From Candidatus Hydrogenedens sp. (lineage in GTDB: Bacteria > Hydrogenedentota > Hydrogenedentia > Hydrogenedentales > Hydrogenedentaceae): a stretch of 64,000 nucleotides of DNA. How positions within the stretch are numbered: position 1 is the first letter of the stretch; every line of letters begins with the position of its first letter. The stretch spans positions 160,001 through 224,000 of the forward strand of contig JBMFRC010000002.1 of assembly GCA_049968235.1 (NCBI GenBank). Direction: 5' to 3'. This document shows positions 22,877 to 47,336 of the stretch, piece by piece. The position numbers were made by a program, and so were the translations under genes. The notes under the pieces are model-generated. The model was not told where the DNA came from, made no database searches, and was given only the letters and a program-made list of their open reading frames with translations.

Positions 22877-23776
22877 AAATACTATCCTTTATTTTTTATT
22901 TTTCCCATATGTTATTCACAACAGTTCGACATACTATATAGTAAGTATTTAAAAACAAAAAATAGAATAAAACAGATATTGTTAGGAAAGCAAGAAGGAA
23001 ATTACATATTCCCCAAAAAATGTTAGATGAATGCTAAAACTACAGAACAAACATGAACGAAATAAAGAAATATAAAAATTACAACGCAATTATCTCGATT
23101 GTAATAAATCCAATATAGTTTATAGATTAAACACTTTTTATCTGTGTTTTTTTACACACAGAAAGTAAGTGCAGTCATACTCCCAAAAATGATTTTTATC
23201 CCCAAAAATATATGCAATAACCGTAGTCTAATTATACATAATGATATGATATAAAAATTCCCATCGTTAGGCTAAGAAACCTATATTTTATAGGGACAAA
23301 ATATTTTTCGCACCAATGTAATACCAACACTCTTTTTTGTAAATGAATATACAGTGCATAATGAACACAGAAATGCATGTGCTATTTCAAAGATAAAAAA
23401 AAGAGTTAAATAGATTAAGTCAGTATATAAGTATTATGTTTGCAAAACTTGTATATTTCTAAATTTTTATTAAAAGTAAAAAAGATAAACAAAAATGTCT
23501 TTTTTTTATGGTAACAGAGAAAATCTTGTTTTTTAGCCAACATTATTGTGACAGTTATATTTTTGTATATTAAAGATCCAACCATTATTTTTATTACTAA
23601 AAAATATATGCTTTGATTTCTATATAAAAATTGAAATCAAATATAACCATATTATTGATTTTATAATTTTTTGATTTCGGTTTTTCCTTATGTTATAATA
23701 ATACACAAAACCGCACGGAGGTTAATTTAATTCTCAAAATTTTTTAACAGCTTTTTAAGCAAAGGAGTATGATTGT
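22877..23776. other. About 900-bp AT-rich non-coding leader upstream of the tandem DUF1559 genes
   Basis: No ORF of 60 aa or more on either strand. It has very low GC and contains poly-A/T tracts. Confidence 0.4.
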
Positions 23777-24768
23777 ATGCGTAAAAAAGTTTCACATTAA
23801 TTGAATTACTAGTCGTTATAGCCATTATTGGTATTCTTGCTGCGATACTACTTCCCGCTCTGGCACGGGCTCGTGAAGCAGCAAGACGTTCCAGTTGCCA
23901 GAATAACCTAAAACAATGGGGTTTGGTATTCAAAATGTACTCTAATGAAGCCAAAGGCGAACGCTATCCCCCGTTACAAACTTACAACCCGATAGAAAAT
24001 GATGCTGATATCGCTGCGGGTCCACAAGTAAGCACTCTATATCCCGAATACCTTACAGACCCCTATATTATCATTTGTCCTTCTGACCCCAGCGCATCAA
24101 ATATGAGAACTAAACTTGAAGAAAATGATGGAAACCTGGTTAAACTTTCAAAAGATATTGACGAAAGTTATGCTTACTTTGGTTGGGTTTTTGATAGACT
24201 AAAGCCTTCCACACCTGCCAATCAATTTCTAATTGTGACTATATTAACTTCATTATTAGGTGGTTCATTTGATACCAGCCAGCCCGTTCCCATCCAATTA
24301 GGAGCAGCATTAGATGGATTATATCACGCAAATATACCATTGGTAACTGCCTATGTGAACGGTTCTGACCCAACTGCTTTAATGAAAGTGATGGACCAGG
24401 ATTCTCACTTACCATCCAGCTGGGCAGGTTATGGGAATGGTGGTGGAAATACCGTATACCGTTTGCGTGAAGGTATTGAACGCTTCCTCATTACCGATAT
24501 TAATAACCCAGCAGCAAGTAACAATGCACAAAGTTCTGTATGGATTATGATGGATACATTCTCCGCAGGTGGAGTTGCCGGTGATTTGTTTAATCATATT
24601 CCGGGTGGTTGTAATGTACTTTATATGGATGGACATGTTGAATTTATAAGATATATAGCCACAAATAATCTTGTTGCCGACCCATCTGGCACAAGTGTTA
24701 ATGGAACTGAGCCTATTATCGCAACAGTGGCAAATATGGTATCTGCAATTGCGGCTGGCTCACAATAA
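23777..24768 (+). pseudogene. DUF1559 / prepilin-type (type II secretion pseudopilin-like) protein, N-terminal frameshift
   Basis: ATG at 23777 with an AGGAG Shine-Dalgarno; MRKKVSH then hits a stop. The +2 frame continues as [43 protein letters not shown], matching the downstream paralog. This is consistent with a 1-nt deletion near 23790. Confidence 0.6.
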
Positions 24769-38682: not shown

Positions 38683-39921
38683 TTAATGTTGTTCCAGCCA
38701 TACTTGTAACTTTTTTGACATAATATTTGAGATAAGTTGATGCCCTTTAGCCGTTGGATGTCCGTCAATAGGGAAAAATAATTTGGGGTTATCTTTCTGC
38801 TCACGGAATTCTTGTGTTAAGATAAAACAAGGTAATGATGCCCGTTCTGCAGAAAGTATAAAATGCTTATCTATATTTTCTGTTGTTAACATCTCGGGAG
38901 ATACTTCAAATTGTAATCGTTTCATATTTTCCCATGCATGCTGATTGACATAGAAACCCTGCGGAATGCTAACAACAACTGTTTCTGCCCCTGCCTTCTT
39001 TCCCATAGATGATATTTCCTCTAATATTTGAGTTAATTTTTCTATACAAGGCACAATGGCTGGGTTCGAACTGTCTTCCAGAGGGATGATAGTAATCTCC
39101 GGACTTTTAATTGCCACAGAAATAAGAAATGGATTAATTAGTCCATCAAGGAAAGCAGAACGAATTTCCTTATCCAGATTATTAAATCGTTTTCTTTCTT
39201 TTTCATTAAATTGCGATAATATTTCTCTTGCAGAATTGCGAGCAGATGCCTGATTTTTCTCTGCATTCGTAAATAAAGCAGGCTTTCTTTTTGTACTTTC
39301 TATCAGATATTTTTGCGTTAAAAATTTTCGAACACTTTTGCTTATGTTTGGGAAAAGATAATTTAAAATATTATAAATAACATTATCTTTTGTGCTTTTT
39401 ATTTCCGAACTACAAACTGCCAGTAAATCATCTCCTTGTAATAGCGCTATCATGATAAGGTCTGGCTCCAATATAGGAATTGCCACTTTCGCTAATTCGA
39501 GGTAAAATAACGGGTCTGCACCTGGCTTACCCAAATTAACCGTCTCAACAGTTTTCCCTTCTATTTTAATTTGATGTTCCAGATGACGCACCCAGGTATC
39601 TGTAATATTTACACCCCAACCATAGGTATAAGAGTCGCCAAACACAAGTATTCGATAAGTATTTTTGTCTTTGGGAATATGTATCTCTTTATCACGGATA
39701 CCGATGGAATTGATACTTACTCGATAGCGAAAATCCGTTGAAACAAATTCCTCATTGGAATATCTTGGGAAAATCAAAGATATACCCTGTGTCAAATAAT
39801 AATTATCTGAGAAACTCAACAAATCATCAATAAAATGAATGGCAATGAGTACAAGAGAAACAGAAATGAATAAAAGACAAAACTCTTTCCATCCAAATCG
39901 GATTTTTTCTTTCTTTTCCAT
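38683..39921 (-). CDS. SGNH/GDSL hydrolase family protein, membrane-anchored
   Basis: N-terminal TM helix and a GDS(Y) block (LVFGDSYTYGWG). Confidence 0.65.
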   Translation of the reverse strand: MEKKEKIRFGWKEFCLLFISVSLVLIAIHFIDDLLSFSDNYYLTQGISLIFPRYSNEEFVSTDFRYRVSINSIGIRDKEIHIPKDKNTYRILVFGDSYTYGWGVNITDTWVRHLEHQIKIEGKTVETVNLGKPGADPLFYLELAKVAIPILEPDLIMIALLQGDDLLAVCSSEIKSTKDNVIYNILNYLFPNISKSVRKFLTQKYLIESTKRKPALFTNAEKNQASARNSAREILSQFNEKERKRFNNLDKEIRSAFLDGLINPFLISVAIKSPEITIIPLEDSSNPAIVPCIEKLTQILEEISSMGKKAGAETVVVSIPQGFYVNQHAWENMKRLQFEVSPEMLTTENIDKHFILSAERASLPCFILTQEFREQKDNPKLFFPIDGHPTAKGHQLISNIMSKKLQVWLEQH

Positions 39922-39997
39922 TTATATAACCTTGTGATTTATATCAATTCCGATAAGCCCGATATATCTAAATTTTCAGTTCTGTCTGACTTCAATT

Positions 39998-41086
39998 TTA
40001 TGTTGGTGTTCGTTTCCAAATGGAGATGGATAGTATCAAAAATAATAGATTTGCCCCCCATGCACCTATTATCGGTGGTAAAGTCTGGAGATAACCCAAA
40101 CCGGTAAATAGAATAAAACAAAGCATGTAGCACAATGCAGAGATGGCTGTTATTCCGAAACTCAATATAAATCCCCCTTTTTTCCACAATACCGATAAAG
40201 GTAACGCAAGTAATAACATAATAAAAATGCTGGCAGGTCGTGCTATCCGTGCATACCAATCCACTTCATATTTATAAGTAGGTATTCCAAAAAAACGGGC
40301 TCGTTTGATTTCCTCATAAAACTGCTTCCATGTTTTTAGTTCGTGAGGCAGGTCGAGGGCAAATAACGTTTCGGGAGATTCCGTAAATGGAGCAGGTATT
40401 TGTGTAATTCGAATCACCTCTTGTTCCATATCTTTTTTGGGGAAAAGAACAAACTGGCGACCATCTTCTATAAACCATCTTTTTTGTGTCTTATCCCACC
40501 AGATATATCGTGCACGTATTTCGTCAATACGGTCTTCCTGAATGCGATGAATCACTATATCTCTGCCTGTCATGGCTTCGCGATTAAATCGTAATATATG
40601 ACAGGTCCAATTCCCACTTAGATTGGTCCAACTAACACCAGAATGCGTATCTCCCAGGTGGTATGAGAAATACATCTTCTCCAGATGTCGAAACTGTTCT
40701 GCGCACCATACACCCATAGTATCTTCTACAAAAAAACTTCCTATCGCAATACATAATCCGGCAAGAAAAACACTCGTTGTTATTCTCAATAGAGGTATCC
40801 CTCCGGAAAGTAATGCGGATATTTCCCCTTCTTGAGTACTTTTACCCCAGACTAAAAAGGTCGTTAGCATCACACCTGCAGATAGAAAATGGTATTGTAG
40901 AAAAACTTTTGGCAGAGACAATATATAATATTGAACAATAATAATAAATGGAACATTATACTTCTGTACAGATTCCTGTCGGGCAGAAAAAAAATCAACG
41001 ATAACATATAGAAATGCAAGCGTAATTAATACCCTCAAAAAGGTCTTGAGCCACCATAAAAGGTAATATTTGTCTATCGTTTTCAT
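39998..41086 (-). CDS. LptF/LptG family permease (YjgP/YjgQ), second gene of the pair
   Basis: Start set at MKTIDKYYLLWWLKTFL, a typical LptG-type N-terminus, with an ATGA overlap onto the upstream gene's stop. Six TM helices and a periplasmic beta-jellyroll insert. The longer track ORF reaching 41317 is an out-of-frame overlap artefact. Confidence 0.7.
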   Translation of the reverse strand: MKTIDKYYLLWWLKTFLRVLITLAFLYVIVDFFSARQESVQKYNVPFIIIVQYYILSLPKVFLQYHFLSAGVMLTTFLVWGKSTQEGEISALLSGGIPLLRITTSVFLAGLCIAIGSFFVEDTMGVWCAEQFRHLEKMYFSYHLGDTHSGVSWTNLSGNWTCHILRFNREAMTGRDIVIHRIQEDRIDEIRARYIWWDKTQKRWFIEDGRQFVLFPKKDMEQEVIRITQIPAPFTESPETLFALDLPHELKTWKQFYEEIKRARFFGIPTYKYEVDWYARIARPASIFIMLLLALPLSVLWKKGGFILSFGITAISALCYMLCFILFTGLGYLQTLPPIIGAWGANLLFLILSISIWKRTPT

Positions 41087-42207
41087 AATCGGTCTGCCCT
41101 TATTAGAAAAAATAACCCCAACCCGCCGATGAGTATATTCGGTATTTGCTGTACGATACATTTTAGATATAAAGGCATAAGCCCACCTCCCCCCACAGCT
41201 TTGTAAAGAAGAAAATATAGTCCAACAATCAGAAAACCCGTAGAAAAAGCATATGTCGTGCCTGCTCCACGCATTCGCACACCTATCGGCGATGCGATTA
41301 ATCCTAATGCCAGACACATCAAAGGGAAGGAAAGCCGTTCTGCAATTTCACTGCGAAATTTTTTAACATCCGACAGAAGTGGTAATCCTTTTGTTCGCTC
41401 ATATTCCTGCGAGATACGACGGTGCTCTTCCAATAATTCACGAATAGACATACCTGTCCGAAGTCGAATGGTTTCCATAGGCTGGAGTGGAGGAATAGGT
41501 TTTTCTAATCGCTGAAAACTTCCACGAACAACCTGATTATTTTGTTCTTGTGACTCTATCCAGAAACCATTTAACATTTCCAGCACATTTTCATCTTTCC
41601 CTTTTCGCCAGCGTGCTTTTTCTGCATAAAAGGCAACCATTTTCCCTTCATCACCGGGTTGTAATATAACAATGTCCTGCAATTCACCATCTCTTGACCG
41701 TCCTCGAATATATACCCGCAGTTTACCATATTCATACATTTTCCCGGTGGGAATTAAATCTAATGACATACGTAAAGGTAGGTCCATACGGGCTAATTTC
41801 ATAAATTGCCGAAATGCCCATGGTTGTGCAATATCTTGAACAACAAAGCAAAAAATACTCAAAACGAATGATAACATCACCGCAGGTAAGGCTATCCGAC
41901 GCATTGAAATACCCCCAGCAGTCATGGCGATTATCTCCCGATATCGACTCATGCGGTCAAACATTAACATTAAACCAAATAAGAAGGTAATCGGAATAAT
42001 CATCCCCACCATCATCGGAAGTGCATACAACGACATCCATAGAAAATCTGTTACCTGAAGCGGAGCCACAGGAAGTTCATCCAACAATTCTTTTACCTGC
42101 TGTTGGAGTATTCCGCTAATCATTAGAATCGCAACCGCAGAAAACGCAATAAACATTGGCGGGATAATCTGTCGAAGTATATATCGGTCTATCCGTGTTA
42201 TAATCAT
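41083..42207 (-). CDS. LptF/LptG family LPS export permease (YjgP/YjgQ), first gene of the pair
   Basis: MIITRIDRYILRQ N-terminus with the TM1-3 / periplasmic domain / TM4-6 layout. Confidence 0.75.
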   Translation of the reverse strand: MIITRIDRYILRQIIPPMFIAFSAVAILMISGILQQQVKELLDELPVAPLQVTDFLWMSLYALPMMVGMIIPITFLFGLMLMFDRMSRYREIIAMTAGGISMRRIALPAVMLSFVLSIFCFVVQDIAQPWAFRQFMKLARMDLPLRMSLDLIPTGKMYEYGKLRVYIRGRSRDGELQDIVILQPGDEGKMVAFYAEKARWRKGKDENVLEMLNGFWIESQEQNNQVVRGSFQRLEKPIPPLQPMETIRLRTGMSIRELLEEHRRISQEYERTKGLPLLSDVKKFRSEIAERLSFPLMCLALGLIASPIGVRMRGAGTTYAFSTGFLIVGLYFLLYKAVGGGGLMPLYLKCIVQQIPNILIGGLGLFFLIRADRL

Positions 42208-42319
42208 ATTCTCATCACTATGTATAAATCTTAATTTACTGTAAGGAATTTATATTTTAATCGATACAGACAAATAAACGGTATTTTTAATCTTACATCT
42301 TTCGGCTTAAGATTTAATA

Positions 42320-43414
42320 ATGAATTTAAATTCAATTCAGATAAGGGCAATACGAAAGCAGATTCTTCATTGGTATTCACAACATGCAAGGCCTTTACCC
42401 TGGCGAGGGACAAAGGACCCTTATAAAATATGGTTGTGTGAAATTATATTACAACAAACACGAATCGAACAGGGAACAGATTATTATTTTCGTTTCCTTG
42501 AAAAATTCCCAACACTGAAGCATCTGGCTTCTGCAGATCAAACAAAAGTACTAAAAGTGTGGGAGGGATTGGGTTATTATACCCGCGCCCGAAATTTGTT
42601 AAAAACTGCAAAGATTATTTATTCCCAATACGGAGGCAACTTTCCACAAACTTATGAAGAATTATTAAAATTGCCAGGGATAGGACCTTATACCGCATCG
42701 GCAATAGGAAGTATTTGTTTTAATCTTCCCGTTCCAACCATTGATGGCAATGTTCGTCGTGTGCTTGCTCGCTTATTCGAATTACAGGATAAAGCGAATT
42801 CAACATTTTTTGGCAGAACTACACAACACCTGGCAGAACAACTTATTTCTAAGAAATCTCCCGGCTATTTTAATCAAGGGATGATGGACATCGGTTCAAC
42901 TATATGCACACCTACGAACCCGGAGTGTATAGGTTGTCCTTTGAAAAATTACTGTCTTGCATACCAGCATGGAACACAAAACTGTTTCCCTAGAAAAGAA
43001 AAAATTCGGCCCGTGCCAATCCTTCATTGGGCTGTGGCTGTAATAATGAATAAAGAAGAGATACTTCTTACCTGTGAAACAAACCGTAATTTTCTGAAAA
43101 ATCTTTATGCGTTACCCACAGTGGACATCACCGATATAAAAAGCAAAAATACTTTTGAAAATATATCTGCCTTATTGAGTAAAAAATTACATACACCGAT
43201 ACCAATAGAATGGGAATATCTATTTCAAATTACTCGAAAATATTCGAGTCGCACTATACATTTTTCTGTATATAAGAATAAAAAACAATTAAAACTTTGT
43301 ACCAAAAAGATTGAACCTTTCCAATGGATTCACCTTAAGGAAATTCATCTATATCCCTTCTCCCGTGCTTACTCCGAAATAATCCAAAAAATAATGGAAA
43401 CACAGTATTCTTAA
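42320..43414 (+). CDS. mutY: A/G-specific adenine DNA glycosylase MutY
   Basis: HhH-GPD domain (LPGIGPYTASAI), a [4Fe-4S] loop (CTPTNPECIGCPLKNYC) and a C-terminal NUDIX-like domain. Confidence 0.85.
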   Translation: MNLNSIQIRAIRKQILHWYSQHARPLPWRGTKDPYKIWLCEIILQQTRIEQGTDYYFRFLEKFPTLKHLASADQTKVLKVWEGLGYYTRARNLLKTAKIIYSQYGGNFPQTYEELLKLPGIGPYTASAIGSICFNLPVPTIDGNVRRVLARLFELQDKANSTFFGRTTQHLAEQLISKKSPGYFNQGMMDIGSTICTPTNPECIGCPLKNYCLAYQHGTQNCFPRKEKIRPVPILHWAVAVIMNKEEILLTCETNRNFLKNLYALPTVDITDIKSKNTFENISALLSKKLHTPIPIEWEYLFQITRKYSSRTIHFSVYKNKKQLKLCTKKIEPFQWIHLKEIHLYPFSRAYSEIIQKIMETQYS

Positions 43415-43473
43415 AAACAGTAATGAGATATCAAACAATTCTTCTCAATAAATTGCATAACCTTTCATTCCCG

Positions 43474-45006
43474 TTAAATAGCCTTCAAATCTATGGAACG
43501 GTATTGAACGGCTTCTGCGATGTGTATATCGTGTATATCTTCGGAATTGTCGAGGTCCGCAATAGTTCTCGCCATCCGTAATACCTTGTCATAAGCACGA
43601 GCACTTAACCCGTGATGTTCAATCGCTTGAAGAAGTAATCTTTGTGTGCTATCAGTTAGTTTGCAAAAACGGCGGATTTGCCTCGTATCAAGGTGTGCAT
43701 TAAGTAATGTGGTTTTCCCATAACGATGTTGTTGCCGATTTCGGGCTTCCTGTACCTGATTCCGCATATCCGCACTAGTGGGTCCCATAGGTTGATTTTG
43801 AGATAACTCGTGAAAAGGTAAAGAAGGCACTTCAATATGCATATCAATACGGTCTAATAAAGGACCGGAAATTCGATTGATATACCTTTGAATTTCACCT
43901 ATTGAACAACGGCACACCCGTTTAGGGTCTGTTCTACAACCACAGGGACAGGGATTCATTGCAGATATAAGCATAAACCGACTCGGAAGAGTTACCGCAT
44001 AATGAGCCCGTCGTATATGCACAAAGCCCTCTTCTAAAGGCTGTCTTAATACTTCCAATGTTGCCCGATTAAACTCCGGAAGTTCATCTAAAAATAATAT
44101 GCCGTTATGAGCTAAACTGACTTCACCGGGCTGAAAATTGGCACCTCCTCCCACCATTGCAACTGTAGAAACGGTATGATGTGGTGAACGGAATGGGCGT
44201 TTTGTAATTAACGAAGAGTTTTGACCTTTTCGTGAAACAACGCTGTAAATCTGTGTAGTTTCAAGGGACTCTTCAAAACTCATCTCAGGCAGGATACCGG
44301 GAATACGCGAAGCCAGCATTGTTTTTCCCGTTCCCGGTGGACCAATCATTAACACATTATGTCCACCTGCAGAAGCAATTGTTAAGGCACGTTTAACATG
44401 AGCCTGCCCCTTTACATCCTCAAAATCCAGAGCGGTGTGATACCTATTATGAAATAATTCCTGATAATTTGTCTGATAAGACATATATGCAGAAGGCTCA
44501 TTCAGATACCGGAAAGCGTCCTGCAAACTTTTTATTGGTATAACATCGATATCATGCACCAATCCTGCCTCTTCTGCATTAACTTCGGGTACGAGGATAG
44601 CATTAAAACCATTTTTACGGGCTAAAATAGCCATGGCTAAGGTGCCAGGGACATGTCGAAGAGAACCATCTAACGCTAATTCCCCTACAATTAATATCTT
44701 TTCCAATTCTACACGAGGCATTACTTGTTCCCCTGCCAGAATAAGTCCTAACGCAATAGGCAGGTCTAAATAACTCCCCTCTTTACGAATATCTGCAGGT
44801 GCTAAATTTACAACCACATGTCCTCGAGGTGAACGAAATCCAGAATTACGTAAGGCAGATGCCACACGTTCCCGGCTCTCTTTTACCGCTGTATCTGCCA
44901 ACCCTACCACCTCTGTTCGCATCTCCCCATGTCCTATATCCACTTCTACGGTCAAAGGGAACGCTTCTATTCCCAATATATGTGCTGACTGAACCCTCGC
45001 AAGCAT
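43474..45006 (-). CDS. comM: YifB/ComM family Mg-chelatase-like AAA+ ATPase
   Basis: N-terminal Lon-like domain (MLARVQSAHILGIEAFPLTVEVD), Walker A GPPGTGKT and a C-terminal Mg-chelatase domain. Confidence 0.85.
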   Translation of the reverse strand: MLARVQSAHILGIEAFPLTVEVDIGHGEMRTEVVGLADTAVKESRERVASALRNSGFRSPRGHVVVNLAPADIRKEGSYLDLPIALGLILAGEQVMPRVELEKILIVGELALDGSLRHVPGTLAMAILARKNGFNAILVPEVNAEEAGLVHDIDVIPIKSLQDAFRYLNEPSAYMSYQTNYQELFHNRYHTALDFEDVKGQAHVKRALTIASAGGHNVLMIGPPGTGKTMLASRIPGILPEMSFEESLETTQIYSVVSRKGQNSSLITKRPFRSPHHTVSTVAMVGGGANFQPGEVSLAHNGILFLDELPEFNRATLEVLRQPLEEGFVHIRRAHYAVTLPSRFMLISAMNPCPCGCRTDPKRVCRCSIGEIQRYINRISGPLLDRIDMHIEVPSLPFHELSQNQPMGPTSADMRNQVQEARNRQQHRYGKTTLLNAHLDTRQIRRFCKLTDSTQRLLLQAIEHHGLSARAYDKVLRMARTIADLDNSEDIHDIHIAEAVQYRSIDLKAI

Positions 45007-45133
45007 GATTTCCTTCCTATTACTTCTTTCAGGTTGTATATTTTTCTACAAGAGAGGTGTCCCTCCCTTCACAAATAGTCTCCACTATTTCTAATAGATT
45101 GTCGATATTGTCTTTTTTCTCTATGACCATTGC

Positions 45134-45937
45134 TCAAAATAATTCCTCAGTTTCGTCTTGTTTTCCATTTTCTTTTATTCTATATTTTTCTGTCCTTAAT
45201 TGTTGCAGTGCAAATTCATAATACTCTTTTATGATTTAAAAACCAATTTACTGACGTTTCATAAACTTAGATATAACTGCTACTTGACCGGAACCTAAAA
45301 AGGGGTCAAGGATTACATCACCCTCTTCACTTGAATATTCGAGTATTTTTTTTATAATTTCCGCAGGTAACTTCGTAGGAGTTTTTATATCACCAGTCCA
45401 ATATTCCCTTTGGATAAACCACACATCTTCTTTGTCCTGATAGTGTAAACTTTTTCCAGAACTATTTCTTGTGTCTTTTCCATATCTTGCATACGGGAAA
45501 AACTTCCGTCTATAGTCATTTTTACATACATATAGGCAATGGTAGTGAGAAGTTATATATCTACGGTTTGTAACAACTCCAAACTGGTATTTCCATATAA
45601 TATGATTCACCGTAATAAAACCTACTTCATCCAGAGTGTTGAGAATACCCTTTAGATTATTCTATCCCGAAAATACATACACACTACCTGAACCTTTTAA
45701 TAAACGATATACTTCTTTCATCCAATTCAGTGTAAATCTACAATATTCTGCCTGAGGAATCTCATTATACCCTTCAAGAACTCGCTCAGAGATACGATTA
45801 TAATTGGAACGCTTTGCCTTAAAATCAATAGCAAAGGGGAGGTCTGTAATGACGAAATCTATCATCTCACCATTAAGTAACTTCATGCCATCAATACAAT
45901 CTATATTGTAAATATTATTCAATTCCATGCGTTTCAT
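45134..45937 (-). pseudogene. Beta-class N6-adenine/N4-cytosine DNA methyltransferase (PF01555-like), disrupted by three in-frame stops
   Basis: A single reading frame carries motif IV-like ITDLPF near the N-terminus, IIW.K, motif I ILDPFLGSGQ and a C-terminal IGF.I..EYYEFALQQL. It is interrupted by TAG (45662-45664), TAA (45248-45250) and TAA (45236-45238). No frameshift is needed. Confidence 0.6.
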
Positions 45938-46013
45938 AAATTTCTATTTTCATTAGCAAAATATTATATCATTCAAAGCAACCCATGCCATTAAATTAAT
46001 TACAAAAAATCTA

Positions 46014-47336
46014 TTAATCGTAAGTATGGGATATTCCATATAACTTAGCGTATTGATAATGATAGATAATAGCGAGAGATATAAAGAACAGCAAAATATA
46101 ATAAACAGCAAAGGAAACTTCCACCCAATTTGACCATGGTCCTGTAACTAACTGGGCTATAAAGTTCTGAATAAGTAATACTGTCCATATTATAACGGGA
46201 TATTTTGGAAAAGGATTTTTCGTAAATTGGGGGTCATTCGAATTTCGTCTCATATAAAAAACAATAACAATTATTCCCCCAATAATTATTGGGATAAAGA
46301 CCAGCCACAATATTTTGTCCCAGTATTCCTCATTCCCTAAATATATATTTGCCCAACCTTTCATTCCATTCCGTAAAGATAGGGCAATGGCTAAAAACAC
46401 CGTAAGAAACAGGGTTATACGTTCGGTAGTGGGTTTTAATTTTGTTGCATTATTTGAGATAGAAAATTGTAAAGGCTGATTGGTTAGAAAATATGCAATG
46501 CCATAGGCAAAACCGAGACTAATTCCACCGGAGGTCTCCCAACAACGCCACCAGTTAAAGTTATACCCTTCCCAGATAGACTGTGCCCATTTCCAATTCT
46601 GTAATGATGCCCAGCCAATACCGTTTATAATTCCTACACTTAAAATAAGGATAATATTCTTCCTATCTTTCCGAAAAATTTCACCTGTAAGAACACCTAA
46701 ATAAAGTCCTAAATGCATAATCGCACTGCGATTATCATTAATCAACCATCGTAAATTCGGATTGTTTTGTAAATCCATATAGCGTTCCTTCACCGTGCTA
46801 TATAAGGGCAGGAATACATTAGGAAAACTTTCAAACATAAATCTCGCAATCACAATTCCACCAATAGCACATAAAATCCTCACTATCCAGTCCTTCTTTG
46901 TTGTTTTCTTTTCACAACTTGCCCAGGCAAGGAAACACGCTCCTAACCCTGCCCATGGAATCCCCGAAATAAACTGCCAGATAAATCCGTAATAACGAGG
47001 TATAGGGACAAATTCGCCTGCGGGATAATTGGTATACATTCTACCTTCAAAAAAAGCGGGCCATTGCATCCAACCTCTTGCTCCAGCAACAGCAATACCC
47101 AGTGTCATTGCCATAAGAGCAAATGCGTTTGAGTAGGGTCGGACTGATGAACAACTCGGGTCATAGGAAAGGAACCACCATGCAGTTCCTAATGTAATTC
47201 CTGCAAATAAGCAACCATTGAACGCTCCAAAGCCTGAACACCCGCGAACCGCCCAGGTCATCCCTCCCAATACAACAAACAGAAGAGTAGGAAGTATCAA
47301 TTCGTGAAAGTAGTAGTGTGTCTTGGAAATATTCAT
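46014..47336 (-). CDS. Polytopic integral membrane protein of unknown function (Trp/aromatic-rich)
   Basis: 440 aa with about 10 hydrophobic segments, an ATG start, and no recognisable catalytic motif. Confidence 0.5.
   Translation of the reverse strand: MNISKTHYYFHELILPTLLFVVLGGMTWAVRGCSGFGAFNGCLFAGITLGTAWWFLSYDPSCSSVRPYSNAFALMAMTLGIAVAGARGWMQWPAFFEGRMYTNYPAGEFVPIPRYYGFIWQFISGIPWAGLGACFLAWASCEKKTTKKDWIVRILCAIGGIVIARFMFESFPNVFLPLYSTVKERYMDLQNNPNLRWLINDNRSAIMHLGLYLGVLTGEIFRKDRKNIILILSVGIINGIGWASLQNWKWAQSIWEGYNFNWWRCWETSGGISLGFAYGIAYFLTNQPLQFSISNNATKLKPTTERITLFLTVFLAIALSLRNGMKGWANIYLGNEEYWDKILWLVFIPIIIGGIIVIVFYMRRNSNDPQFTKNPFPKYPVIIWTVLLIQNFIAQLVTGPWSNWVEVSFAVYYILLFFISLAIIYHYQYAKLYGISHTYD

What the first reader, a model, noticed from the sequence alone, without database searches (positions are those of the whole stretch)
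45134..45937. DNA methyltransferase remnant with three in-frame nonsense codons and no indels, adjacent to comM
The conserved motifs of a beta-class amino-MTase (ITDLPF, IIWxK, ILDPFLGSGQ, the C-terminal IGF.I.EYYEFA) are colinear in one frame but interrupted by TAG, TAA and TAA. Each stop sits where a conserved residue is expected: SG*NNL and Q*IGF*II. Three nonsense codons without a single frameshift is unusual for neutral decay. There is no cognate restriction enzyme nearby, so this looks like an orphan or decayed R-M remnant beside comM. The alternatives are stop-codon readthrough or a sequencing artefact.
Basis: seen in the sequence. Interest (0 to 1): 0.55.

Follow-up and report, generated by a model that had tools for sequence, protein, structure and literature searches.

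The report
Decayed restriction-modification cassette beside comM
This is the dead remnant of a two-gene restriction-modification cassette in a Candidatus Hydrogenedens genome: the partner gene was almost wholly deleted and the now useless DNA methyltransferase gene picked up three stop codons and a broken catalytic motif, which is ordinary gene decay.

Summary
Window 45134-45937 (- strand) is a full-length, collinear 267-codon beta-class DNA methyltransferase gene (PF01555). It has TAG at W92, TAA at Y230 and TAA at E234, and no indel against intact orthologs.

It is a pseudogene, not readthrough: TAA ends 30 of 41 long ORFs in the window. The catalytic DPPF motif is mutated to DLPF. The window lineage carries about 2.5 times more amino-acid changes than its intact sister (Fisher p=0.018).

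"No restriction enzyme nearby" needs correcting. The 33-codon ORF at 45029-45130 is the collapsed relic of a 404-aa partner gene. About 1.13 kb was removed in frame between two copies of ATTTGTGAA.

Related Hydrogenedens contigs show the whole decay series: both genes intact, partner lost with methyltransferase intact, the window, both genes collapsed, almost nothing left.

Three nonsense codons without an indel is only mildly uncommon, roughly 5% by published proportions and 3-36% by my estimates. Two other loci of this family also carry a lone in-frame stop.

By-product: the lost partner belongs to an unnamed family with an endonuclease III / MutY-like fold (HhH-GPD) and a four-cysteine iron-sulfur loop. 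It always sits beside this methyltransferase. It may be a restriction glycosylase.

The parts
45134..45937 (-). Pseudogene of a 267-codon beta-class (PF01555) Type II DNA methyltransferase, probably adenine-N6. It is full length and collinear, with three nonsense codons and a mutated catalytic motif.
   Evidence: It matches PF01555 at 125 bits. It is 87% identical in protein and 86% in DNA to the intact ortholog P0001/L001, which sits in the same gene order.
45662..45664 (-). TAG at codon 92. The ancestral codon was TGG (Trp), invariant in 120 homologs.
45248..45250 (-). TAA at codon 230. The ancestral codon was TAT or TAC (Tyr; Phe in a few relatives).
45236..45238 (-). TAA at codon 234. The ancestral codon was GAA or GAG (Glu), 98% conserved.
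45839..45841 (-). CTC (Leu) at codon 33, replacing CCC (Pro). This turns the catalytic motif IV from DPPF into DLPF. Pro is present in 100% of 120 intact homologs.
45029..45130 (-). 33-codon mini-ORF. It is the collapsed relic of the 404-aa partner gene, an HhH-GPD / iron-sulfur protein that is the presumed restriction component. Codons 3-14 of that gene are fused in frame to its codons 392-404.
   Evidence: Window 45106-45068 matches the 5' end of the gene in L017 at 30 of 39 nt. Window 45076-45012 matches its 3' end in L001 at 58 of 65 nt. An independent assembly (L002) is identical across this stretch.
45068..45076 (-). Deletion junction ATTTGTGAA. This microhomology occurs near both ends of the intact partner gene. 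About 1131 bp (377 codons) is missing between the two copies.
45963..45991 (-). Promoter-like site (ATGGCA, 17-nt spacer, TG-TATAAT) just upstream of the methyltransferase start. No terminator-like site lies between the remnant and comM.
   Evidence: This is a consensus match only: 3 sites were found against 6 expected in shuffles.
43474..45006 (-). comM (Mg-chelatase-like ATPase, 510 aa). It is the intact downstream flank of the cassette.
46014..47336 (-). 440-aa membrane protein gene without a family assignment. It is the intact upstream flank of the cassette.

Best explanation
A two-gene Type II restriction-modification cassette sat between a membrane-protein gene and comM in an ancestor of this Candidatus Hydrogenedens clade. 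The cassette was a 267-aa beta-class methyltransferase followed by a 404-aa partner.

In the window's lineage the partner gene was removed first. A roughly 1.13-kb in-frame deletion between two copies of ATTTGTGAA left a 33-codon relic. With nothing left to protect against, the methyltransferase gene was released from selection. It then drifted for about 8% of the time since the split from its intact sister. In that time it gained about 22 substitutions, including P33L in the catalytic DPPF motif and three single-base changes to stop codons.

It is a dead gene, neither translated through the stops nor recoded. The absence of indels is chance in a young pseudogene. A more decayed relative (L007) shows that deletions follow.

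**Shown:** the homology, the stops, the missense excess, the partner relic and its junction, and the decay series in relatives.

**Inferred:** the order of events (partner first), neutrality after partner loss, and the restriction role of the partner.
For: **The gene and its damage**
- The remnant matches PF01555 end to end across the stops.
- The stops replace W, Y and E, each by one base change.
- The window departs from the >=95% consensus of 120 intact homologs at six sites: P33L, M86V, W92*, D97G, E234* and R246Q. The intact sister P0001 departs at none.

**Relaxed selection on the window branch**
- Changes were polarised with the outgroups L016, L017 and L014. The window branch has 22 nonsynonymous to 18 synonymous changes. 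The L001 branch has 9 to 26. Fisher p=0.018.
- comM on the window branch has 11 to 28.
- Methyltransferase dS against L001 is 0.69 and comM dS is 0.80. The gene therefore co-diverged with its flanks and is not a recent import.

**The partner gene**
- It is intact directly downstream of the methyltransferase in L016 and L017, which have the same gene order.
- Its C-terminal 67 codons survive in L001 (E=2e-18).
- Both of its ends survive in the window, with a microhomology junction.
- The relic is confirmed by the independent assembly L002.

**Decay series in relatives**
- L007 has both genes collapsed by internal deletions.
- L004 keeps only 20 nt of the partner's 3' end (19 of 20 nt, p<0.003).
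- Across about 88 loci of the family, the pattern "intact methyltransferase with a degraded partner" occurs 7 times. The reverse pattern occurs once.

**Standard genetic code**
- Among 41 long ORFs in the window, 30 end in TAA, 7 in TGA and 4 in TAG.
Against: - No reads are available and no second assembly covers the three stops. L002 ends at 45185, and the exact-match searches found nothing.
- The estimate of about 22 neutral substitutions is crude (plus or minus about 8). If the indel-to-substitution ratio is 0.2 or higher, zero indels would be improbable (P about 0.01).
- The order "partner lost first" comes from R-M logic and the 7:1 tally, not from this locus itself.
- L003, a relative about as close as L001, has no trace of the cassette. 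An ancestral cassette therefore requires complete loss in that lineage.
Confidence: 0.85

Rival explanations
1. The gene is inactive, but the repeated knock-outs are not neutral. Loss of the orphan methyltransferase, or of a harmful truncated product, was favoured. Alternatively the dead allele is one of several in a mixed population.
For: - Three disabling point mutations plus a catalytic-site mutation in a gene that has otherwise diverged little. Overall dN/dS against L001 is 0.089.
- The independent assembly L002 breaks inside the remnant at 45185. This could reflect strain heterogeneity at this locus.
- The partner gene was lost independently in several lineages.
Against: - After the first stop, at codon 92, later hits cannot be seen by selection on the protein.
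- The counts fit neutral expectations.
- The substitution spectrum matches that of comM.
- There is no direct evidence of polymorphism.
Confidence: 0.1
2. The stops are sequencing or assembly errors and the methyltransferase is really intact.
For: - No independent sequence covers the stops.
- Metagenome-derived assemblies can mix strains.
Against: - Errors would have to be three substitutions that each hit a conserved residue and each create a stop. They would also have to account for P33L and about ten extra missense changes at conserved sites.
- Typical errors are homopolymer indels, yet the A8 run at gene nt 585-592 is intact.
- The flanking 5.8 kb agrees with a second assembly at 99.97%.
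- The partner gene is truly deleted in both assemblies.
Confidence: 0.04
3. The stops are read through or recoded by a suppressor tRNA or an alternative code, and a full-length methyltransferase is made.
For: The frame is preserved over 267 codons, and each stop lies at a position where a sense codon is expected.
Against: - TAA is the terminator of 30 of 41 long ORFs in the window, and TAG of 4.
- Two different stop codons stand for three different amino acids (W, Y, E).
- The only tRNA in the window is tRNA-Met.
- The catalytic DPPF motif is destroyed, and nonsynonymous changes are in excess.
Confidence: 0.01

Closest known systems
Beta-class N6-adenine / N4-cytosine DNA methyltransferases (Pfam PF01555), for example CcrM, M.MboIIA, M.RsrI and DpnA
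   Same: - Full-length profile match.
- Motif order IV (DPPF), then target-recognition region, then motif I (FLGSG).
- Best solved relatives are CcrM (E=3e-29) and M.MboIIA.
- Matches the PADLOC Type II MTase model at 225 bits.
   Different: - Interrupted by three stops, and motif IV is DLPF.
- Far below the CcrM equivalog cut-off (122 bits against 830), so it is not a CcrM ortholog.
- It belongs to a very conserved, horizontally spread subfamily, about 70% identical across bacterial and archaeal phyla.
Decay of Type II R-M systems into orphan methyltransferases and pseudogenes (restriction gene lost first, because losing the methyltransferase first is lethal)
   Same: - The partner is deleted while the methyltransferase stays full length.
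- A sister lineage (L001) has an intact orphan methyltransferase.
- The tally of degraded partner against degraded methyltransferase is 7:1.
   Different: All point-mutation damage in the methyltransferase is nonsense or missense, without frameshifts. The partner is not a recognisable nuclease.
Mig.MthI (PDB 1kea), an HhH-GPD iron-sulfur mismatch glycosylase. From my own knowledge, it is encoded next to the MthTI R-M system on plasmid pFV1.
   Different: - Twice the size (404 aa against about 220 aa).
- No sequence-level family match.
- Linked to an amino-methyltransferase, not a 5mC methyltransferase whose deamination would need T/G repair.
- In most cassettes it is the only partner.
R.PabI-family restriction glycosylases (R.PabI, R.HpyAXII, R.CcoLI; PMC5388411)
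   Same: The concept: a base-excision enzyme paired with an adenine methyltransferase in a mobile two-gene cassette.
   Different: The R.PabI family has the 'half pipe' fold. The partner here has the HhH-GPD fold. No activity has been shown for it.

Membership tests
PF01555 beta-class DNA amino-methyltransferase | Profile match above the Pfam gathering score over the whole domain | tested here: met
   125 bits against a cut-off of 26.7, covering profile positions 1-219 of 221 in one stretch across the masked stops.
PF01555 beta-class DNA amino-methyltransferase | Beta-class order of motifs: catalytic motif IV before the SAM-binding motif I | tested here: met
   D-L-P-F at residues 32-35 and F-L-G-S-G at 213-217.
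PF01555 beta-class DNA amino-methyltransferase | Intact catalytic motif IV (D/N/S)-P-P-(Y/F/W) | tested here: not met
   The motif is DLPF. Pro33 is present in 100% of 120 intact homologs.
PF01555 beta-class DNA amino-methyltransferase | Uninterrupted reading frame (functional gene) | tested here: not met
   TAG at codon 92 and TAA at codons 230 and 234.
PF01555 beta-class DNA amino-methyltransferase | DNA methylation of a defined motif | not testable with these tools
   Needs SMRT or nanopore methylome data.
Type II restriction-modification system | Adjacent cognate restriction gene | tested here: not met
   Only a 33-codon relic remains in the window (45029-45130). An intact 404-aa partner is present in the orthologous loci L016 and L017.
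Type II restriction-modification system | Mobile two-gene cassette with a patchy distribution among unrelated housekeeping contexts | tested here: met
   Methyltransferase plus partner sits between unrelated genes in Methanocaldococcus, Caldisericia, Omnitrophica, Leptospiraceae, Hydrogenedens and others.
Conserved orphan methyltransferase (CcrM/Dam type) | Equivalog-level match and conservation across the clade | tested here: not met
   CcrM model: 121.8 bits against a cut-off of 830. The gene is absent from L003, L005 and L006 and is decayed in the window and in L007.
Stop-codon reassignment or programmed readthrough | The codon concerned is not used as a terminator elsewhere; a suppressor tRNA is present; the sequence stays under purifying selection | tested here: not met
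   TAA ends 30 and TAG ends 4 of 41 long ORFs. The only tRNA in the window is tRNA-Met. The window branch has N:S of 22:18 against 9:26 on the sister branch. The rest of the genome could not be searched.
HhH-GPD DNA glycosylase superfamily (for the lost partner, tested on ortholog P0121) | HhH-GPD fold | tested here: met
HhH-GPD DNA glycosylase superfamily (for the lost partner, tested on ortholog P0121) | C-terminal Cys-x6-7-Cys-x2-Cys-x5-Cys iron-sulfur cluster loop | tested here: met
   Invariant C374, C382, C385 and C391. They align to EndoIII C187, C194, C197 and C203 by hhalign. Weak mutY hits fall in the same stretch.
HhH-GPD DNA glycosylase superfamily (for the lost partner, tested on ortholog P0121) | Catalytic Asp, and Lys for bifunctional enzymes, after the helix-hairpin-helix | tested here: inconclusive
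   Invariant K222 in G-S-A-I-G-D-K-A and invariant D258 in D-S-N-A-G-R-V-L-F-R-T resemble EndoIII G-V-G-R-K-T-A and D-T-H-I-F-R-V-C-N-R-T. This is my own motif comparison. The profile alignment did not reach this region.
HhH-GPD DNA glycosylase superfamily (for the lost partner, tested on ortholog P0121) | Sequence-profile membership (PF00730 or NCBIfam models) | tested here: not met
   No Pfam, NCBIfam or PADLOC hit above threshold.
R.PabI-type restriction glycosylase | Half-pipe fold or sequence similarity to R.PabI | tested here: not met
   The fold is HhH-GPD. The profile search of solved-structure sequences (PDB) returned only EndoIII- and MutY-type chains, plus one unrelated weak hit.
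R.PabI-type restriction glycosylase | Excision of the unmethylated base from the recognition site, blocked by the cognate methylation | not testable with these tools
   Needs biochemistry.

The most novel reading that the evidence does not exclude
The gene whose 33-codon relic lies at 45029-45130 belongs to an unnamed family. My search found about 400 members in Bacteria and Archaea, and every source name seen was 'hypothetical protein'. I propose it is a second structural class of restriction glycosylase: an endonuclease III / MutY-like HhH-GPD iron-sulfur enzyme. It would excise the unmethylated target base, and perhaps nick through a lyase lysine, at the site that the neighbouring beta-class adenine methyltransferase protects. 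The Hydrogenedens clade would then record its repeated loss, followed by decay of the orphaned methyltransferase.
Probability: 0.35. Interest if true: 0.7.

Novelty: new member of a known kind. Interest (0 to 1): 0.3.

Why it matters
For the window itself the finding matters little. It is a clean, datable example of how an R-M cassette dies: partner deleted, then the methyltransferase drifts, then deletions follow. It also cautions that "nonsense-only" pseudogenes need no special mechanism.

The wider value is the by-product. The same, very conserved methyltransferase is paired in different genomes with a 216-aa protein, with a 404-aa HhH-GPD / iron-sulfur protein, or with both. Neither partner has a family name. 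If the 404-aa protein is a restriction enzyme, base-excision restriction would have arisen on a second fold, one normally devoted to DNA repair. That claim can be tested directly in vitro.

Tried and rejected
- **Independent confirmation of the stops.** An exact look-up of the 91-aa truncated product found nothing. A 50-nt degenerate pattern spanning both TAA codons found nothing in metagenome contigs. The only other assembly of this organism (L002) stops at 45185.
- **The 216-aa partner common in other phyla.** There is no trace of it in the window or in its Hydrogenedens relatives (L001-L007) by tblastn, E up to 10. It has no Pfam, NCBIfam, PADLOC or solved-structure (PDB) sequence hit.
- **A special mutational process.** I noticed an excess of A>G changes on the coding strand of the window branch (16 of 40; binomial p=0.04, post hoc). 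comM shows the same leaning on all branches. It is therefore the background spectrum in an A-rich gene, not targeted mutagenesis.
- **Vestiges of the cassette in L003, L005 and L006.** Local alignment scores are no better than shuffles. Only L004 is significant.
- **Sequence-level alignment of the partner's HhH and Asp region to E. coli EndoIII.** hhalign aligned only the cysteine loop.
- **Literature.** No paper in the held library contains both 'restriction glycosylase' and 'HhH-GPD', and none matched a broader five-term query on a helix-hairpin-helix restriction glycosylase. REBASE could not be consulted.
- **A published indel-per-substitution ratio for bacterial pseudogenes.** I did not find one in the paper read, so I bracketed the ratio at 0.05-0.3.

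Full report
**1. Observation**

The - strand of window 45134-45937 reads as 267 codons plus a terminal TGA in a single frame. It has three internal stops:
- TAG at 45662-45664 (codon 92)
- TAA at 45248-45250 (codon 230)
- TAA at 45236-45238 (codon 234)

With the stops masked, the translation matches Pfam PF01555 (N6_N4_Mtase) in one stretch. It covers profile positions 1-219 of 221, at 125 bits against a cut-off of 26.7. A search of 5.8 billion proteins returned 3471 relatives. The best (P0001) is 87% identical and exactly 267 aa long. Relatives from many bacterial and archaeal phyla are still about 70% identical.

In an alignment with 19 intact relatives the stops fall on W92, Y230 and E234. 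The ancestral codons were TGG, TAT/TAC and GAA/GAG, so each stop is one base change away. The genes of the window, L001 and L016 are all 804 nt and align without a gap.

ITDLPF is a mutated form of the invariant catalytic motif TDPPF. The change is CCC to CTC at 45839-45841, and Pro is present in 100% of 120 homologs.

**2. Organism and locus**

The downstream gene is comM (43474-45006, - strand). Its closest relative among species-representative genomes is Candidatus Hydrogenedens terephthalaticus, at 94% protein identity (L003).

A second public assembly (GCA_049969095.1, contig L002) is 99.97% identical to the window over 39372-45185. It ends 52 nt inside the 3' end of the remnant, so it does not cover the stops.

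The contig carrying P0001 (L001) has the same gene order: membrane protein, methyltransferase, comM. Synonymous divergence from the window is 0.69 for the methyltransferase and 0.80 for comM. The methyltransferase therefore diverged together with its flanks. It is an old resident of this locus, not a recent import.

**3. It is a pseudogene under relaxed selection**

I polarised the window-L001 differences with three outgroups (L016, L017, L014).

| Branch | Nonsynonymous (stops included) | Synonymous |
|---|---|---|
| Methyltransferase, window | 22 | 18 |
| Methyltransferase, L001 | 9 | 26 |
| comM, window | 11 | 28 |

Fisher p=0.018 for the two methyltransferase branches.

The window departs from the >=95% consensus of 120 intact homologs at six positions: P33L, M86V, W92*, D97G, E234* and R246Q. 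P0001 departs at none, and the mean over intact homologs is 1.6.

The window uses the standard code. Among 41 long ORFs, 30 end in TAA, 7 in TGA and 4 in TAG. The only tRNA in the window is tRNA-Met. Readthrough or recoding is therefore rejected. A sequencing artefact would have to explain the three stops, the lost catalytic proline and about ten extra missense changes as well.

**4. Is "three nonsense, no indel" unusual?**

From the excess of nonsynonymous changes I estimate that the gene has been neutral for about 8% of its branch. That corresponds to roughly 22 (plus or minus 8) substitutions. This is my own calculation from the counts.

I enumerated all single-base changes of the reconstructed ancestor. 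Between 3.4% and 7% create a stop, depending on transition and AT bias. The resulting probabilities are:

| Event | Probability |
|---|---|
| Three or more stops | about 0.03-0.15 |
| Two more stops, given that one was the inactivating hit | 0.13-0.36 |
| No indel, for indel-to-substitution ratios of 0.05-0.2 | 0.33-0.01 |

An empirical yardstick points the same way. In Salmonella, 131 of 346 single-hit pseudogenes are due to a premature stop (PMC2916853). Three nonsense hits in a row would then occur about 5% of the time.

Two other loci of this same family carry a lone in-frame stop with no indel: L051 at Y77 and L057 at E59. The pattern is on the uncommon side of ordinary and needs no special mechanism.

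I also checked an apparent excess of A>G changes. comM shows the same leaning, so it is background.

**5. The missing partner**

In other phyla this methyltransferase is followed, in 53 of 81 loci with enough downstream sequence, by a 216-aa protein. That protein is 87-88% identical across phyla and has no family assignment. It has left no trace here.

Two metagenome contigs from the Hydrogenedens clade tell a different story. In L016 and L017 comM is 88-90% identical to the window's. Both carry an intact methyltransferase, then a 404-aa gene, then comM.
- The 50-aa ORF of L001 is the C-terminal remnant of that gene (residues 338-404, E=2e-18).
- In the window, 45106-45068 aligns with the 5' end of the gene (30 of 39 nt to L017).
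- Window 45076-45012 aligns with its 3' end (58 of 65 nt to L001).
- The two alignments overlap in ATTTGTGAA (45076-45068).

The 33-codon ORF at 45029-45130 (MVIEKKDNIDNLLEIVETIC|EGRDTSLVEKYTT) is thus the partner gene after an in-frame deletion of about 1131 bp between two short direct repeats. L002 is identical over this stretch, so the deletion is independently assembled. The deletion in L001 has different end points, so the partner was lost independently in the two lineages.

**6. Decay series**

| Locus | State of the cassette | Calls |
|---|---|---|
| L016, L017 | Both genes intact | 32, 33 |
| L001 | Partner collapsed, methyltransferase intact and still constrained | 38, 41 |
| Window | Partner collapsed, methyltransferase full length but dead | this report |
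| L007 | Both genes collapsed by internal deletions | 14, 24 |
| L004 | Only the last 20 nt of the partner recognisable (19 of 20, p<0.003) | 71 |
| L003, L005, L006 | No detectable trace | 14, 24, 71 |

Across about 88 loci of the family, "methyltransferase intact, partner degraded" occurs 7 times and the reverse occurs once. That is what is expected if the partner is the harmful, restriction-like component that must be lost first. This is an inference from established R-M biology.

**7. What the partner is**

The 404-aa protein (P0121) has no Pfam, NCBIfam or PADLOC match. It has 411 relatives in Bacteria and Archaea, and every source name seen is 'hypothetical protein'.

Three homologs chosen independently each sit directly downstream of a PF01555 methyltransferase, among unrelated housekeeping genes. 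They come from Methanocaldococcus, Caldisericia and Omnitrophica. Two loci (L030, L085) carry both the 216-aa and the 404-aa partner.

All 23 top hits have this fold. Foldseek agrees weakly.

The invariant C374-x7-C382-x2-C385-x5-C391 aligns with the EndoIII iron-sulfur loop. Invariant K222 and D258 sit in motifs that resemble the EndoIII lyase lysine and catalytic aspartate. That is my own comparison and is not confirmed by a profile alignment.

The most novel reading is a restriction glycosylase on the HhH-GPD fold, analogous in concept to R.PabI, which has the half-pipe fold (PMC5388411). The sober alternative is a repair accessory like Mig.MthI. Nothing here tests activity.

**8. Verdict**

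The finding is real and its core reading (a decayed R-M remnant) is right. The suggested oddity is not significant, the alternatives of readthrough and artefact are unlikely, and a relic of the partner gene is in fact present. The remnant is a new, dead member of a known kind. The lasting interest lies in the uncharacterised partner family that the relic led to.

Noticed in passing
L016:4825-6039, L017:803-2017 (relic in window 45029-45130): An unnamed family of about 400-aa proteins (411 hits, Bacteria and Archaea). It has a predicted HhH-GPD fold and an EndoIII-like four-cysteine loop. It always lies directly downstream of this PF01555 methyltransferase. It is a candidate restriction glycosylase on a repair-enzyme fold.
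   Followed up: partly
L008:6828-7481, L011:6825-7475, L013:6828-7478, L015:5717-6367: The commoner partner of the same methyltransferase family is a 216-217-aa protein. It is 87-88% identical across unrelated phyla and has no Pfam, NCBIfam, PADLOC or solved-structure (PDB) sequence match. Loci L030 and L085 carry both this protein and the 404-aa protein.
   Followed up: partly
window 45185 and 39372 (ends of L002, GCA_049969095.1 contig JBMFPN010000190.1): A second assembly of the same organism (99.97% identical) breaks 52 nt inside the 3' end of the methyltransferase remnant. At its other end, its last 40 nt diverge from the window. This may reflect strain heterogeneity or an assembly problem at this locus.
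   Followed up: no
L057:934-1760 and L051:3998-4830: Two other metagenome copies of this methyltransferase each carry one in-frame stop and no indel (at E59 and Y77). In L057 the 216-aa partner downstream still looks intact, which is the 'wrong' order for R-M decay or possibly a sequencing error.
   Followed up: partly
L004:8801-9853: The ortholog of the 440-aa membrane protein (window 46014-47336) is split into several tblastn pieces in different frames in this relative. It looks like a frameshifted pseudogene.
   Followed up: no
window 46014-47336 (-): A 440-aa multi-pass membrane protein, conserved across the Hydrogenedens relatives at 66-86% identity, with no Pfam or NCBIfam family.
   Followed up: no
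window 22877-23922: About 1 kb of AT-rich sequence (GC about 0.28) with no ORF longer than 75 aa. It lies upstream of a 281-aa ORF at 23923-24768 that starts with TTG. I did not examine the ORF or the gap further.
   Followed up: no
window 45346-45353 (gene nt 585-592): An A8 homopolymer inside the pseudogene has stayed in frame. It is the likeliest site for a slippage indel or a sequencing error.
   Followed up: no
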